From Octopus vulgaris (taxonomy: Eukaryota), in NCBI GenBank assembly GCA_951406725.2, contig OX597815.1:215078001-215142000 (forward strand): a DNA stretch of 64,000 nt, written 5' to 3'. Below the pieces are notes generated by a model. That model was given only the letters and a program-made list of their open reading frames with translations, had not been told where the DNA came from and ran no database searches. Positions 29,251 through 63,289 of the stretch are shown here, piece by piece. The position numbers were made by a program, and so were the translations under genes. Position 1 is the first letter of the stretch. Every line of letters starts with the position of its first letter.

Positions 29251-30358
29251 TCGCTAGACAAAAAACTTGCCTCTCTACTCTCACCTTCTTTTTCAAGTGA
29301 TACTTGAAAAAGTTGATGAGAGATTGATCAGAGAGGGTGTTTGCCTCTAATCCTTTTAAATGCGTCCACCAGACACATTCTTTCGCCATAGCCACTAGTA
29401 CGATGAAAATAGCTCTTCCTTCCCGTTTGAAGGAAGGAGGCGTGACGATATTGATGATAGACTCGACTGATAAAGCGACTCATCCCATACGTGAAAGCGG
29501 TCGCTCGGCATAAGCCCACAGGTCGGAAATGGTTGGACACTGTACTAGTGCGTGCAGAACGGTTTCGTCGCTCTGACCGCATCTCGGGCAGGTCGGGCCG
29601 GTGTTTTTTGAGCCGTGCCTGTAGAGCTTATCCCGAACGGGTAACGCTTCTCGATAGCACTGCAAGACCAGGGATCTCTGGAAGTTGTCCATAGGTCCCG
29701 GCCCGAAAGTCGTCTTGAACAGGCAGGTCAGGTATTCAACGTCAACGCCCAGATTCACCCGAGATCAACGTTGTACCTCCCCTCCATTAATCCTCTATAG
29801 AATGCTTTGGTTGTGATGTAGTCGCTTAAGGTCGACCCAGGACGGCAGAGTTGCTCCAGAGCAACGCGATACTCGCGGTGCCATTCGCCCTTCCTCGGTC
29901 TCTTCTTGATCCACGACTGCAGCTCGGTCATGGAGACGAGCTACAGGAAAGCACGTCGCACAAATGGTGACCACACCTGTCCACCGTCATCTAAGTAGAG
30001 CCGGAGATGTCGCAGTCTCAGTGCATGTCTACGCATCATCAACTACGGCTTGCCCATCCCTCTTTTCAGCGGGTGTTGGCAGCAAACGGATCGCCTGACC
30101 ATCGGAACGCTTCCTTTCCACAAGAAGCGGAAGAGGGTGCGTTCCAGTTTGGTGATGGTAGGGTCGGGACAAGGCACGACGGTCAGGTAATAGTTGATGA
30201 CGGATGCGATGTACGCGTTCGCCACCTACGCCCCACCTTTTGCAGGGAGAGAGTGGCCACTCTACTCGTTATCTCGTCCCAGTTCTTCTCCGTTTGGAGG
30301 TCCGGACCGAACTAGACCCCGAGCAACTTGACCGGCCAGTCGGTCCAGCATCCCACTA
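29251..30358 (-). mobile_element. Tx1/L1-like LINE ORF2 C-terminal fragment
   Basis: LFRFLWKG and REALPVRDKL..CPRCGQSDETVLHALVQC (CCHC of L1/Tx1 ORF2). Frameshifted. Confidence 0.85.
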
Positions 30359-34450: not shown

Positions 34451-34644
34451 CATTATATATACAAATGTATACAAATTATATGTATATATATGTATAAGTA
34501 GTTGAATGAATTATCCTAGTATGGATAATTCGGTTAACCGATACCTGGGTAGCAAATTCACGTCAGAAAAACACGGTTGAAGCTACATGCCAAGGGCAGA
34601 GATCACGTGCTTTCGTGTGGAATTTTGTGTGTTTTTTAATACAA

Positions 34645-34983
34645 ATAAATGAAAGAATGGAGTTGAACGACGATTTAACAAAATTCCTTTATTCTCGACA
34701 TATGTTTCGAAGGCTGCATATTCCTAATTTCGAATGAATAAGGGGTGCATTATGCTGCCTTCTCACCAGGAGAGACAAGGAATTATGTCAGCATCAAGAT
34801 GAACAAAAATCTAAAAGTTTTTGTTCATCTTGATGCTGACATAAGTTCCTTGTCTCTCCTGATGAGAAGGCAGCATAATGCACCCCTTATTCATTCGAAA
34901 TTAGGAATATGCAGCCTTCGAAACATATGTCGAGAATAAAGGAATTTTGTTAAATCGTCGTTCAACTCCATTCTTTCATTTAT
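34645..34983. repeat. Near-perfect hairpin palindrome (165/166-bp arms, 8-nt loop); inverted Penelope-like terminal repeat
   Basis: Arms 34645-34809 and 34818-34983 are reverse complements with ~2 differences. Confidence 0.95.
34855..34935 (+). ncRNA. Type I hammerhead ribozyme motif
   Basis: Stem I TCTC/GAGA; core CTGATGA (34859-65); stem II GAAGGC.GCATA/TATGC.GCCTTC; GAAA; palindromic stem III ACATATGT; GTC cleavage triplet (34929-31); AATAAA directly downstream. Confidence 0.85.
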
Positions 34984-39283: not shown

Positions 39284-40439
39284 GAGCGAGAGAGCAGTGC
39301 ATGCCATCAAAGTGACACTGGGGTAAAATATACAGAGCCCAGTATACCAATCATGACTACCCGTCTGATAAGGGTACACTAGGCACATGGGATCTTTTCC
39401 TTTTGAACGGCAGATAATTTCTAGTTAACTAAACACTTTAAAACTTCGTATACTGGTAGAATGTGTCAAAATAAAACATTTTTTTCTCTTGGCTTTCTTG
39501 AGAAAATTGTAATTTGTTTGTTTAACGTAGTTTAATTTTTCGAAATTTAACTAATCCTATGCTCTCTTTTGAGCAAAAATCATTTGCTGCGTCTAAAACT
39601 GAGACAACATTCTGTAACTAACCCTAAACCTCCCCCTAACCCTAACCCTAATTTTTTTTTTCTTAAATGTTAAATTAATTTAATTTTGTAAAAAAAACTA
39701 AAGCAATGGAATTAAATTAATTTAACAATTAAGAAAAAAATTAGGGTTAGGGTTAGGGGGAGGTTTAGGGTTAGTTACAGGATGTTGTCTCAGTTTTAGA
39801 CGCAGCAAATGATTTTAGTTGAATGGAGGTAATCGATTGGTTAAAATTGCCGAAATGCTCGGATTTTCAGACGAAATATCTTACAAACTATAGAATTTTC
39901 TCAATAAAACCAAGAGAAAATGATGTTTTATAAACACATTCTACCAGTATACGAAGTTTCAAAGTGTTTAGTTAACTAGAAATTGTGTTGACATCTGCCG
40001 TTCAAAAGGAAAAGATCCGGCAAATGCATCACAACCATGTGTGTGCGACATGGTAATCTCATATCAAGATAAACGGCACATGACCTTGCAGGTGGGGCTC
40101 AGGTAAAATTTTCTTCTGTTCGAGTAACCCATCCCGCTAAGGATGTTGAACCCATGTTTCCAGAGGTGAATTATTCAAACCCAAAGAATCCCTCTCAACA
40201 CATAGCTATGATGCTCCCCCACTATTTCTGCTCATGATCAGAGATGCACATATCGTCAGCCACTAAGGGACATGCTCAACTGGTTAAGGTCAAACAACTG
40301 ACAAGCAAATCTGTGGTATTGAGCAGAATATTTGCTGTAGACCATCTTTTATACCAAGACAAACCAATGTACATGATAACACTTCCAATCCGTTAAGATC
40401 AGTAGCCACGAGAGCCACTGCCTGGTACTGCATCAGGGC

Positions 40440-41779: not shown

Positions 41780-43075
41780 AAATAAAGAACCTGTTGTTCA
41801 GTAAACAAAATAACGATAACTTCCAGAAGTTTCTTAAGTACAATATTTTTAGAATACAGTTCTTCTGAATTTATCAGTTTCATTGAACTCCATTGAATAA
41901 AATAAGAGCTTTGAGATTTTCCTTTATCCGAATTCATCTTAGAGCAACGTAAAGTTGATCACGACTGAAAATAGACTCTGGCAAATATATTCCCACTTTG
42001 TTGAATAACTGTCTTTGCGGTGTTCATGGTTATGATAAAGGAGCGTGGAAATGAAAACTGGCGTCTTTTTAGCTGGAATGGTAGTGTTGTTTCAGTAAAA
42101 GCCAGGTTTATATTGAATATGAAAGCTAAATCTCCTACTCAACATGATCATACAGCTCTCAAAGTATTAATCTCGCATCATTACGTAGACCTTTTGTGAG
42201 ATTTCAGTTGTGCAGCAACATAATAATGGAACTGGTTTTTAGAGGCGAACATAAGGAGGCATTACTGAAGACATCATTTATGAAGAAACTCCATTAGAAA
42301 ATTAGTTCTCAATTGATGTCATTTATGCTCTCCTTAAAATATTTGAAAAACGCCTTTATCTAATATGATAGCATTATTACTTGTGAAGTTAATACAATTT
42401 GGCTTGATACTTTGTCGATCGTTTGCAAGCTTCATCGAGCTACTGTACAGCTGTTCGCTACTTTAATGATGTCTTCACTGTCAATCAGTTTATTGGGTAT
42501 CAGTACCGCGTATTCGGGAAACCCTTCAACACTCTCGGTAGAACCATTATTACTTGCTGAACTCAATTTTCACGTTCCCATTCAACTACATCAGCTAGAT
42601 GTATCTCCATAGAAACGAGAATTGAATGTGTTATTCAGTGATAGTGTATCTGATCCTTTTGGTAATATATCACCTGTCTGGCGAAACTCTCCTCCGAGAA
42701 AAAGCGTTTTAATTCCGAATGATTTGCAATTGTTCATAATATCATTGAGGAAGTCACCGACGATACAAAGAGGACTGCAAAACAACATTGATGTCTCTTT
42801 AACAATGAGTTTCTCGTCATAAAGACGATTAGAATGATTCGGGACCTATCGTGCATCTTGCATCCCCGTAATCTCAACATTGACTGAGGAGTACTCACTC
42901 GCCTCGCATCAAAGAAGAGGAAAACTTCGTTACAATTAAGAACTTTTATGGGCATAGCTGCTTTGAAAATGCATCTGAATGCAGTTGTTGCTTGAATAAA
43001 TATTGCACTGCCTTAACAGAAGAGTAAATTTCCACGTTGATGTAACGGTTGAATTTTTACAGTGAGTATTTATCA
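41780..43075 (-). pseudogene. Degenerate autonomous Helitron Rep/Pif1-helicase remnant
   Basis: Minus-strand pieces: INVEIYSSVKAVQYLFK, DARRVSTPQSMLRL.G.KMHDRS, LFLGGEFRQ (GGDFRQ), IMLLHN*NLTKGLRN, LPFQLKRRQF and NKVGIYLPESIFSRDQLYVAL. Confidence 0.85.
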
Positions 43076-44153: not shown

Positions 44154-45313
44154 GATACAAACTGGGACAAGAACGCAAAACATTTGGAAGATGATACAAA
44201 AAACACGGACGGGACATTCGAAGCCTTCAATCTTCAGTCAAGTACCGGATCATCCTCGCAATTTTGACTGATTAATCTTGAGATTGCTCCGACCTGGCTA
44301 GCCCCAAAGGAAAATCTAAGCCAAGCGCATTAGATTCCTTGGAAGAAAGCCTCGAATGTATACAAAACAAGGACGGGAACGAATAAGAATACAAAAATAC
44401 GTAAAAACAATAATGATAATAATAATAACAAAAACAGGACGTCACAGACAGGCGTCTTTTCGACAGGACGGGTGAACTTGAGCTGGCGCATTGGAAAAAT
44501 GCCTTGAAGCAAAGAGAGAAAAGAAATGTGTCTAGCCTCGGCAGCTGCTGAGCACGAAAAGGCAGGACAGCAGTCCAAAGTTAGTCACGTGTGAGGAGAA
44601 GAGAAAGGAAAAGAGGGACAGAGGAGGAGAGAAAAAAAGGGAACAAGGAACAAAGTAGGAGGAGAAGAGAGAGAGAGAAAGAGACAGATCAAAGAGGAGT
44701 GCAAAGTGTGAAAGGCAGAGAAATGTAGGAGAGGGGAGAGAGAGAGAGACAGTGTTATAGAGTCGTACCAAGTTTAAAGAAACATGTACTTACATACAAG
44801 ACCAAAAAGGGTACGGGCGTCGCTATATATATCTATGTATATGTAAAAAATACAAACTGGGACAAGAACGCAAAACATTTAGAAGACGATACAAAAAACA
44901 CGGACGGGACATTCGAAGCCTTCAATCTTCAGTCAAGAACCGGATCATCCTCGCAATTTCGGCTGATTAATCTTCAGATTGCTCCGACCTGGCCAGCCCC
45001 AAAGGAAAATCTAAGCCAAGCGAATTAGACCCTTGGAAGAAAGCCTCGAATGTATACAAAACAAGGACGGGAACGAATAAGAATACAAAAATATGTAGAT
45101 TTTCCTTTGGGGCTGGCCAGGTCGGAGCAATCTGAAGATTAATCAGCCGAAATTGCGAGGATGATCCGGTTCTTGACTGAAGATTGAAGGCTTCGAATGT
45201 CCCGTCCGTGTTTTTGTATCGTCTTCTAAATGTTTTGCGTTCTTGTCCCAGTTTGTATTATTTACATATACATATATATATATAGCAGCGCCCGTCCCCA
45301 TTATGGTCTTGTA
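44147..45313 (-). mobile_element. Unclassified non-coding element: 695-nt monomer, direct repeat and inverted arm (Penelope-like architecture)
   Basis: 44156-44402 is repeated at 44851-45097. 45096-45313 is the reverse complement of 44795-45013. Flanked by (TG)n and (TA)n. Strand is inferred. Confidence 0.7.
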
Positions 45314-54544: not shown

Positions 54545-55603
54545 TGATAACGATGGGTTGGTGCCTTCCTCTCAGATCGCTCCTTCCAAGTCCAAGTTAA
54601 TGGTTCGCTGTCCGACGTCTCCAGTGCGAACAGTGGCGTGCCTCAAGGTACAGTGATTGGGCCCTTATTGTTCTTAGTCTTCATAAATGACTTGCCCGAC
54701 GACCTCACGCAACACACCCTTCTATTTGCCGATAATGTCAAACTGGTCGCTCCTTGCGGTGATATAGAGGATCTTCGTCGATGCCTCCACCAAATTTTGA
54801 GATGGTCTAACGAATGGGACCTGTGTCTGAACGTGTCAAAGTGCTGTCATCTGCCTGTTGGCTCTCCTCCTGCAACTCAACTTGATTTCGAGCCGGGTCG
54901 TCTGCTGCTGGAGATGACCGACCAGGTAAAGGACCTGGGTATCTTGGTGGATTCCTCCTTTTCGCCTTCGGCCCAGTGCGTCCATGCTGCCAACAAAGCA
55001 CGCGGAATTCTGTTCTTGATTCGACGGTCATTCGGAATGCTCACAGCAGCCATATTCCTACCGCTCTATGTCACGCTGGTGAGACCCATATTGGAGTACG
55101 GGATTCAAGCCTCTTCTCCTTATCTCCTCAAAGACATACAGCATCTCGAAAGAGTCCAGAAGCTGGCTACCCGCATGGTTCTTGGTCTCAAGCATTTGTC
55201 TTATGAAGAAAGGCTGAAGACGCTCGACCTTTATTCTCTAGAAAAACGACGACACCGTGGTGATCTCATTCTTGCTCACAACATCATAAGCGGAAAGTGT
55301 AACCTCGAAAGAGCTGTTCTTCACTCCTGCTCCAGAGCGTCGGCTGCGGAGTTACTCCGAAAAGCTCTATCTGCGACGATTTCGTCTCAATCGAAGGAGA
55401 GGGGCTTTCTCCGTCCGGGTTGCGGATCCGTGGAATAAGCTGCCGGACGAGATAGTGAAGATGCCGACGACCGCTCGGTTCAAAGTCTCCCTTGACCACA
55501 AGTGGCCTGAACTCTTTACATGAACACCACCCTGTACATAACTCCATGTCCCCCTACATGGCCTTGCTTTTTGCTTTTTGAACCAAAAAATTTACTAACT
55601 AAC
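54545..55603 (+). mobile_element. 5'-truncated CR1/L2-group LINE
   Basis: SGVPQGTVIGPLLFLVFINDLP..LFADNVKL, KDLGI, LVRPILEYG, LERVQK.ATR, LSYEERL..L.L.SLEKRR.RGDLI; frameshift near the C-terminus; short (ACTA)n tail. Confidence 0.9.
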
Positions 55604-56877: not shown

Positions 56878-57223
56878 TATATTATATCAAATTAGAGACA
56901 AAACCAATATTATACAAATCAAACAAAGAAAGACTTAAGCCAATACATAAAATAATTTATATAAATTAAAATTTAACACATGAATAACCACTACGATCGT
57001 TTCGTGTCAGCACATCTTAGACATTCTTCAGGTGGTTTCAAAACCTTCTTAGCTAAGAAGGTTTTGAAACCACCTGAAGAATGTCTAAGATGTGCTGACA
57101 CGAAACGATCGTAGTGGTTATTCATATGTTAAATTTTAATTTATATAAATTATTTTATGTATTGGCTTAAGTCTTTGTTTGATTTGTATAATAGTGGTTT
57201 TGTCTCTAATTTGATATAATATA
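56878..57223. repeat. Loopless palindrome (~172-bp arms, centre TTAG|CTAA); inverted Penelope-like terminal repeat
   Basis: Arms are reverse-complementary about 57052/57053 with a few substitutions and one 4-nt indel. Confidence 0.95.
57068..57119 (+). ncRNA. Type I hammerhead ribozyme motif (mirror copy on minus strand at 56986-57037)
   Basis: Stem I AACCAC/GTGGTT; CTGAAGA (57074-80); stem II TGTC/GACA; GAAA; palindromic stem III ACGATCGT; GTA triplet (57111-13). Confidence 0.85.
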
Positions 57224-61954: not shown

Positions 61955-63025
61955 TAGTTTTATTTTTATAGCGTGCTTTCACTTCACTACCGAGCTCAGC
62001 TCTGTGTGCCTTGGGTATGTGCTGTAATTTGTTGTGATGCTCTGATGGTTATTGTATGGAAAGTGTTCTGCGTAGGATGTGTGCAGTGCCTAGTAGTGCA
62101 ATTTTCTGTATGTTATATGTGTTTGTAAGTCCTGGTGTTTTTGTTATGTATTTGTCTGAATATTTTTTTATCATGCCTAATGCACCTACTATGATAGGAA
62201 TTGTTTCTGTTTTTAGATTCCACATTCTGGTTACCTCTATTTCCAGGTCTTTGTATTTTGAAAGTTTCTCCATTTCTTTTAGAGATACATTGTCATCTGC
62301 CGGTATTGATACATCAATTAGAAAGCATTTTTTTTCTTCATGATCTCTGACAACTATATCTGGTCTGTTGGCCTTAATTTCTCTATCTGTGTGTATCGGC
62401 ATATCCCAGAGTATGGTTGCTTTCTCGTTTTCTGTGACCTTTTCTGGTGTGTGCCTATACCATCTTTTTTCTGTTGTTATTCCATAATGTTGGCATAGCT
62501 TCCAATGTATGTAAGTTCCAACTCTGTCATGTCTGTGAATATATTCCTTCTTAGCCAGGACTGGGCAGCTAGAGATAATATGATTTATTGTTTCTTGTCC
62601 ATCTCCACATATTCTGCAGTTACTTGTAATATTTCTTTTCATTACATGTTTTTGGTAATTTCTGGTGGGGAGGCTTTGGTCTTGTGCTGCAATTAAAAAT
62701 CCCTCTGTTTCTGCTTTGAGTCCTGAGCTTCTCAACCATTGCTGGGATTTTTCTTTGTCTATTTCTTTTGCGTTTAGTTTAGTCCAGTATTTACCATGAA
62801 GGGGCTTTTCTTGCCATCGTTTTATCATGGTTCTTTGCTGTTCTATTTTTAGTTTGGATTTCATTTTTTTTATAGCTTTTGTTGTTTCTTCATCTTCTTC
62901 TTCTTCTTCATGTTTATTAGGTGGTATGATTTCTTGTTTGTATTTGTCAGCTTCCTTAAATACTGAGAACAGTTTTTTGTTTTGCTCGTGTTTTGCTGCT
63001 ATCTGGATCAGTTTTCCTTCCTTCC
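61952..63025 (-). mobile_element. 5'-truncated R4/Dong element (second family) inserted in (TAA)n
   Basis: Open ORF 62049-62864 with LHG, AAQDQ, CRIC..ETINHIISSC, RHD and RPDIVV..LIDVSIP..KY. Pure (TTA)n on both flanks. Confidence 0.93.
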
Positions 63026-63062
<37 letters not shown>

Positions 63063-63289
63063 TATTATTATTATTATTATTCAGTTGGTTAGTTATTTAA
63101 CTAACTAATCGATTGTTTGATTACTCATTCGGTTAATCACTCAGCCACAAGTTATGCTTGCCAAAGTCCTTTCGTCATTATTCTGAGTAGATTTGGTAGA
63201 CGGAAACCGAAAGAAGACCATGTATATATGTGTGTGTGTATGTGTGTGTGTCTGTGTGTGTCTATTATATATATAATATATATATATAT

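What the first reader, a model, noticed from the sequence alone, without database searches (positions are those of the whole stretch)
34645..34983. 339-bp hairpin with mirrored hammerheads, one arm intact and one core-mutated
Seen: 165/166-bp arms around an 8-nt loop. The + strand motif has the canonical CTGATGA core and is directly followed by AATAAA. The mirror motif on the - strand reads CTGGTGA (A6 to G), one of only ~2 arm differences. Inference: an inverted pair of Penelope-type terminal repeats made by template switching or fold-back during reverse transcription. A read-through transcript would form ~165 bp of dsRNA, a possible ADAR/Dicer substrate. An A-to-G change would also fit reverse transcription of an A-to-I edited RNA (speculative).
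Basis: partly seen in the sequence, partly recalled or inferred. Interest (0 to 1): 0.7.

Follow-up and report, generated by a model that had tools for sequence, protein, structure and literature searches.

The report
Head-to-head Penelope retroelement stump
The hairpin and its two hammerhead-ribozyme motifs are real, but it is an ordinary stump of an abundant Penelope-type jumping gene, likely made when two copies of the gene's RNA end were joined back to back, and its A-to-G change is likely a plain DNA mutation rather than a recorded RNA edit.

Summary
The 339-bp palindrome is real (165/166-nt arms, 8-nt loop, two arm differences). It is part of a 488-bp insertion (34496-34983) in a (TA)n tract: the mutated left arm runs on through a ~150-nt tail. 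The family has at least 846 core matches in the genome. Long copies carry a Hydra-type Penelope RT plus GIY-YIG frame. Of 89 head-to-head pairs, 81 have one long and one short 3' end, and 23 of 79 share no sequence between arms. This fits two primed cDNAs, not a fold-back. Both arms share an allele found nowhere else in the genome, so they likely come from one template. Editing is not supported: arm differences give A>G 21 versus T>C 22, and no hyper-edited arm was found among 264. A6G has a 5' G, which ADAR disfavours. One loose end: A6G recurs in 17 of 846 cores, about three times the neighbouring rate. The layout is published (PMC8557442, PMC4209133), and this scan found it repeatedly on other DNA, including this genome.

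The parts
34496..34983 (.). Whole insertion: two 5'-truncated ends of a Hydra-type Penelope-like element joined head to head, between (TA)n-rich tracts
34496..34644 (-). ~150-nt tail, present only on the long arm; in a long copy the same sequence lies just upstream of the ORF start
34645..34809 (-). Left (long, 'A-end') arm, with hammerhead core CTGGTGA (A6G at 34766) and a 1-nt deletion near 34783
34809..34817 (+). Junction and loop: one shared base at 34809; the loop is element sequence carried by the right arm
34818..34983 (+). Right (short, 'B-end') arm ending directly in (TA)n
34855..34935 (+). Type I hammerhead motif with intact core: stem I, CUGAUGA 34859-34865, long stem II 34866-34919, GAAA 34920-34923, short palindromic stem III, predicted cleavage after 34931
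   Evidence: cleavage not tested
34893..34893 (+). C>A allele shared by both arms (mirror at 34735) and matched nowhere else in the genome by a 26-base pattern
34935..34940 (+). AATAAA overlapping the stem I 3' strand; no sign of use as a poly(A) signal in genomic copies

Best explanation
This is a non-coding, 5'-truncated insertion of an abundant Penelope-like retroelement with Hydra-type motifs, in which two copies of the element's end lie head to head in a TA microsatellite, likely because both nicked target strands primed reverse transcription at two fixed start sites on one RNA and the two short cDNAs were then joined. Shown: family identity, the one-long/one-short end rule, (TA)n targets, short junction overlaps, and arms that carry the same subfamily alleles. 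Inferred: two-strand priming, a single template molecule, and joining by microhomology. The A6G change and the deletion likely arose in DNA after insertion. In a read-through RNA of either strand the antisense arm is made first, so both ribozymes are predicted to be trapped in a ~165-bp duplex and not to cut.
For: Family: 846 core matches, 0 in the reversed control. [quoted passage not shown] End rule: 81 of 89 head-to-head pairs among 160 distinct loci have one tailed and one short end. (TA)4 or more follows 108 of 124 long ends and 120 of 128 short ends. Of 79 de-duplicated pairs, 23 have no arm overlap; junctions show overlap in 53, are blunt in 4 and hold inserted bases in 22 (BLAST edges, approximate). 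Same template: arms disagree at 23 of 536 diagnostic positions versus 36% when shuffled; this copy's arms share a genome-unique allele. Neutral decay: arm discordance 2.65% equals twice the tail's private divergence, 2.63% (46 pairs); spectrum A>G 21, T>C 22, C>T 47, G>A 39 (50 pairs). An Anolis PLE protein cuts and extends both strands and starts at two internal sites in vitro (PMC11167929, parts 1-2 of 4 read).
Against: No intermediate was observed; two RNAs from the same source locus would give nearly the same pattern. The shared unique allele could also come from arm-to-arm conversion, although no link of discordance to spacer length was seen (rho 0.19, p=0.21). A6G is more frequent than its neighbours (17 vs 31 over six other A sites; p=3e-5 if sites were equal and copies independent) and sits in both arms of 2 insertions, so some A6G was template-borne. 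Eight of 89 pairs break the end rule. Loci were picked by exact patterns or best BLAST hits, which biases against heavily changed copies. The Hydra linker motif is missing.
Confidence: 0.85

Rival explanations
1. Same insertion, but A6G records an A-to-I edit in the template RNA, for example in one of two tandem terminal repeats of the transcript.
For: A6G is the most frequent of the single-site changes counted: 17 of 846 cores in 15 insertions on several haplotype backgrounds, against 10 at the next A site and 2 for U7C. It is in both arms of 2 insertions. Octopus has very high editing, and lizard Penelope is heavily edited (PMC5625713 passages). Unchecked scan notes report hyper-edited copies in other families of this genome.
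Against: No A>G excess among arm differences (21 vs 22), among rare changes (44 of 11,408 vs T>C 77 of 15,171, p=0.17), genome-wide at neighbouring sites (31 at six A vs 23 at five T, p=0.78) or between lineages (A/G 15, C/T 17). A6G arms carry no extra A>G in cis (5 of 900 vs 46 of 10,320). This arm has 1 A>G in 77 A, and no arm of 264 has more than 4 rare A>G. The 5' neighbour is G, which ADAR disfavours. The arms share a unique allele, so one edited template should have marked both. Seven of the 15 insertions belong to one lineage.
Confidence: 0.07
2. One cDNA folded back on itself and copied its own strand.
For: Short loop, near-identical arms and a shared unique allele; 13 of 46 pairs have spacers of 10 nt or less.
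Against: The loop belongs to the short arm, whose cDNA lacks the tail present on the other arm. The short arm reaches further 5' in 29 of 79 pairs, and 23 have no overlap at all.
Confidence: 0.05
3. The palindrome is an assembly or chimeric-read artefact.
For: No contig in eight laid public runs spans the locus, and the best run shares 0.59 of sampled words.
Against: Different fixed ends on the two arms, two arm differences, non-mirrored flanks, the same build at dozens of loci, and other head-to-head joints in independent contigs.
Confidence: 0.02
4. The hairpin is kept by the host as a dsRNA or small-RNA source.
For: It would form a very stable duplex.
Against: Arms decay at the neutral rate. 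No host-gene domain was found in 74 of 144 window ORFs scanned, only mobile-element domains. Transcription of this copy is not shown.
Confidence: 0.02

Closest known systems
Insertion unit of endonuclease-bearing Penelope-like elements (Craig et al. 2021, PMC8557442; passages, section 11 and supplement rows read)
   Same: An inverted 5'-truncated copy at the 5' end, a tail at one end only, a hammerhead in the terminal repeat, and a (TA)n target.
   Different: The tail here is ~150 nt rather than 30-40. This copy is almost all terminal repeat, so the inversion forms a tight hairpin.
Hydra clade, including Hydra-1_Obim of Octopus bimaculoides (PMC8557442 section 11 and supplement)
   Same: DKT motif, C-terminal GIY-YIG without CCHH, CxxC and CxH near the C-terminus, (TA)n target, hammerhead.
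   Different: No CxCX5C linker (an Asn/Ser-rich stretch instead), RWL for RWK, about 3.4 kb. By eye the protein start and the hammerhead differ from Hydra-1_Obim, so this is another family.
Type I hammerheads of PLE terminal repeats (Cervera and de la Pena 2014, PMC4209133; part 1 of 4 and passages read)
   Same: Short palindromic stem III thought to need dimers; the paper already reports pairs 100-700 bp apart on opposite strands.
   Different: Stem II is long (54 nt) with an inner hairpin; activity untested here.
Poseidon_Ac of Anolis (Frangieh et al. 2024, PMC11167929; parts 1-2 of 4 read)
   Same: Two fixed RT start sites defining a tail, AT-rich target, hammerhead cleavage not needed for insertion.
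   Different: Another clade. Its data are in vitro and do not show formation of the head-to-head joint.

Membership tests
Penelope-like elements (EN+) | Single ORF with PLE-type RT and GIY-YIG endonuclease upstream of the terminal repeat | tested here: met
   Broken but recognisable in long copies: tblastn E=3e-70 for RT, 3e-12 for EN; 42 homologues. The window copy has no ORF.
Penelope-like elements (EN+) | Inverted 5'-truncated copy and one-sided tail | tested here: met
   81 of 89 pairs
Penelope-like elements (EN+) | Hammerhead motif in the terminal repeat, on the ORF strand | tested here: met
Hydra clade | DKT motif in place of DKG | tested here: met
   SDKT in L078
Hydra clade | C-terminal EN without CCHH; CxxC and CxH around the conserved E and N | tested here: met
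   L081 EN alignment
Hydra clade | RWK motif | tested here: inconclusive
   RWL at the aligned place in L078, one copy
Hydra clade | CxCX5C linker before the EN | tested here: not met
   No such motif in any frame of the 560 nt before the EN in 8 of 8 long copies; the open frame has no cysteine in five. I therefore call it Hydra-type, not a proven member.
Hydra clade | Insertion into (TA)n | tested here: met
   108 of 124 and 120 of 128 ends
Hydra clade | Placement inside the clade in an RT tree | not tested
   The reference proteins were seen only in the paper's supplement and were not available as tool sequences.
Type I hammerhead ribozyme | Conserved core and three stems | tested here: met
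   Right arm: constrained fold -26.1 vs free -28.6 kcal/mol; stem I pair U-G 125, U-A 39, C-G 33 of 200 arms; inner pair C-G 158, U-A 21, U-G 19 of 209 (few independent events). The left arm fails at A6.
Type I hammerhead ribozyme | Self-cleavage | not testable with these tools
   No arm is truncated in the two 10-nt bins around the cleavage site.
ADAR-edited retrocopy | Strand-biased, clustered A>G with 5' G depleted | tested here: not met
Non-LTR retrozyme | Tandem non-coding units with a hammerhead in each, no ORF | tested here: not met
   The arms are inverted and the family has coding copies; definition from bioRxiv 2026.07.22.740005, part 1 of 5 read.

The most novel reading that the evidence does not exclude
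The catalytic A6 of this family's hammerhead is selectively edited in source transcripts and written back into the genome, so ADAR switches the ribozyme off and leaves ribozyme-dead copies at three times the background rate, this arm among them.
Probability: 0.07. Interest if true: 0.6.

Novelty: new member of a known kind. Interest (0 to 1): 0.2.

Why it matters
The locus itself is ordinary. The family adds modest value. How PLE inversions form is still described as open (PMC8557442 discussion passages), and the near-strict long-end/short-end rule with same-template arms is genomic support for two-strand priming at two fixed start sites. The family also targets (TA)n without the cysteine linker proposed to mediate that targeting. 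Hundreds of such hairpins could supply dsRNA to ADAR in an animal with heavy editing, but that was not shown here. If A6 editing were real, it would link RNA editing to control of a retroelement ribozyme.

Tried and rejected
Rfam scan: no hammerhead family hit; only sub-threshold microRNA models on hairpins. Pfam on broken ORF pieces and five homologues: weak hits only. Sequencing runs: no RNA holder listed on record. Eight runs laid, all contigs, none spanning the locus; the four guessed to be RNA showed no listed cluster of A>G or T>C, but contigs cannot test editing. An apparent T>C excess over a longer region (p=0.001) disappeared in the terminal repeat alone (p=0.17); it is in any case opposite to editing. 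An apparent purine bias among lineage sites vanished over the wider region. Search for hyper-edited copies with a forced A>G at a TA site: 5 matches in 4 insertions, none with a second A>G in the 31 bases and none clustered. Arm homogenisation in tight hairpins: not detected. AATAAA as a poly(A) signal: rejected for genomic copies. Literature: a search for PLE plus twin priming gave 1 unrelated review (listing only); a five-term search for edited retrocopies gave 0. These narrow searches do not show absence from print. Look-up of earlier findings by sequence gave nothing. Rows dropped: overlapping loci merged (200 to 160), one segmental duplicate and one tandem duplicate removed from pair counts, loci picked for A6G left out of the family-wide spectra.

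Full report
Observation. The palindrome is as described: arms 34645-34809 and 34818-34983, loop 34810-34817, and two differences, both in the left arm (A6G at 34766 and a 1-nt deletion near 34783). The right arm holds a type I hammerhead motif: core at 34859-34865, a 54-nt stem II, GAAA at 34920, a short palindromic stem III and predicted cleavage after 34931. The constrained fold is 2.5 kcal/mol above the free fold. Lineage variants keep stem pairs (stem I pair U-G 125, U-A 39, C-G 33 of 200 arms), though these are few events. Rfam did not detect it. That A6 is needed for catalysis is recalled knowledge, not tested here. AATAAA overlaps the stem I 3' strand and follows the cleavage site, not the core.

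What it is. A 24-base core pattern matches 846 places in the 2.8-Gb genome, the reversed control none. [quoted passage not shown] The named homologues are octopus proteins, so the host is likely an octopus (inference). Motifs match the Hydra clade of PMC8557442 (section 11): DKT, no CCHH, CxxC and CxH, (TA)n target. The CxCX5C linker is absent in 8 of 8 long copies and no tree was built, so I call it Hydra-type. It differs by eye from the published Hydra-1_Obim.

Anatomy. Among 160 distinct loci there are 89 head-to-head pairs within 120 nt; 81 have one tailed end and one short end, 8 do not. (TA)4 or more follows 108 of 124 tailed ends and 120 of 128 short ends. Of 79 de-duplicated pairs, 23 have no overlap between arms, the long arm reaches further 5' in 22, the short arm in 29, and 5 are equal; 53 junctions show overlap, 4 are blunt and 22 hold inserted bases. 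In the window the junction shares one base and the loop belongs to the short arm. Tight hairpins are common: 13 of 46 pairs have spacers of 10 nt or less. Many arms stop 140-160 nt upstream of the cleavage site (78 in two 10-nt bins), and none in the two bins at the cleavage site, which suggests that uncut RNA was the template.

Mechanism. A simple fold-back cannot give non-overlapping arms or a tail on the arm opposite the loop. Two cDNAs primed from both target strands at two fixed start sites can. This is inferred, by analogy with the Anolis protein, which cuts and extends both strands, starts at two internal sites and does not need hammerhead cleavage (PMC11167929, parts 1-2 of 4). The arms come from the same source: they disagree at 23 of 536 diagnostic positions versus 36% in shuffles, and this copy's arms share a C>A allele matched only twice in the genome, once per arm. 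Arm discordance (2.65%) equals twice the tail's private divergence (2.63%), as expected if arms start identical and decay neutrally. In read-through RNA of either strand the antisense arm comes first, so the ribozymes are predicted to be trapped in the -289 kcal/mol duplex.

Editing. In 50 pairs (7,509 nt, 194 differences, 193 polarised) A>G is 21 and T>C 22 (p=0.65). Rare changes in the terminal repeat: A>G 44 of 11,408, T>C 77 of 15,171. Genome-wide: 31 at six A sites, 23 at five T sites, against 824 exact matches. Lineage sites show no purine bias and A6G arms have no extra A>G. No arm of 264 is hyper-edited; the window's left arm has 1 A>G in 77 A. A pattern aimed at edited copies gave 5 matches without clusters. 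The 5' neighbour of A6 is G, depleted at ADAR sites (PMC5625713 passages).

Against that reading. A6G occurs 17 times in 15 insertions, more than the next A site (10) or U7C (2), and about 3.3 times the mean of six neighbours (p=3e-5 under equal, independent rates). It lies on several haplotypes, 7 of 15 in one lineage, and in both arms of 2 insertions. Inheritance from an A6G source explains part of it; the rest is unexplained. My sample is biased against heavily changed copies. Unchecked scan notes report hyper-edited copies in other families of this genome; I tested this only in this family. I leave 7% for editing.

Artefact and function. No public contig spans the locus, so it is not independently confirmed, but the distinct ends, non-mirrored flanks and other head-to-head joints in three of four runs argue that it is real. 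Of 144 window ORFs, 74 were scanned; only mobile-element domains were found. Expression is unknown.

Comparison and verdict. PMC8557442 describes the inverted 5' copy with a one-sided tail, and PMC4209133 reports hammerhead pairs on opposite strands 100-700 bp apart. The scan has logged the same build at least eight times, twice in this genome, including the long/short rule; I had the rule and the Hydra reading before that look-up. The finding is a new member of a known kind. Interest 0.2, for the mechanistic clues at family level, the long tail and the missing linker.

Noticed in passing
L078-L085, 560 nt before the EN domain: The family targets (TA)n although its RT-EN linker is Asn/Ser-rich and lacks the CxCX5C motif proposed to be linked with such targeting.
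   Followed up: partly
family-wide, about 30-45 nt upstream of window 34809 in family coordinates: Strong common 5' stop of arms (78 arms in two 10-nt bins); possibly the transcript start or an RT pause.
   Followed up: no
window 56921-57184: Second palindrome with 134-nt arms and CTGAAGA...GAAA on both strands; possibly another head-to-head hammerhead stump.
   Followed up: no
window 44932-45177: Mirror pair of identical CTGAAGA-bearing stretches on opposite strands, with a third copy near 44237.
   Followed up: no
window 39576-39816: ~240-bp hairpin whose arms contain CCCTAA/TTAGGG units (alignments).
   Followed up: no
window 11052, 11781 (-) and 63882 (+): Further CTGANGA motifs in repeat-like context.
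   Followed up: no
window about 3300-7500: Long low-GC array with 3-base periodicity and strong GC skew.
   Followed up: no
window 969-1565, 16198-18290, 29483-29764, 54551-55435, 62052-63080, 42594-42845: RT and zf-RVT fragments of LINE type, and a weak PIF1-like helicase fragment.
   Followed up: no
P0002, P0013, P0026: Octopus proteins annotated as 'GATA zinc finger' or 'myb-like' match this element's RT piece at 49-84% identity and look like mis-named retroelement ORFs.
   Followed up: no
window 34766 and 34862: In a + strand hairpin RNA the intact arm's A6 would face a C; A-C mismatches favour ADAR (recalled), so this copy could be edited today if transcribed.
   Followed up: no
L125/L126 and L088: Whole head-to-head units duplicated after insertion (same junction 18 kb apart, and 1.1 kb apart).
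   Followed up: no
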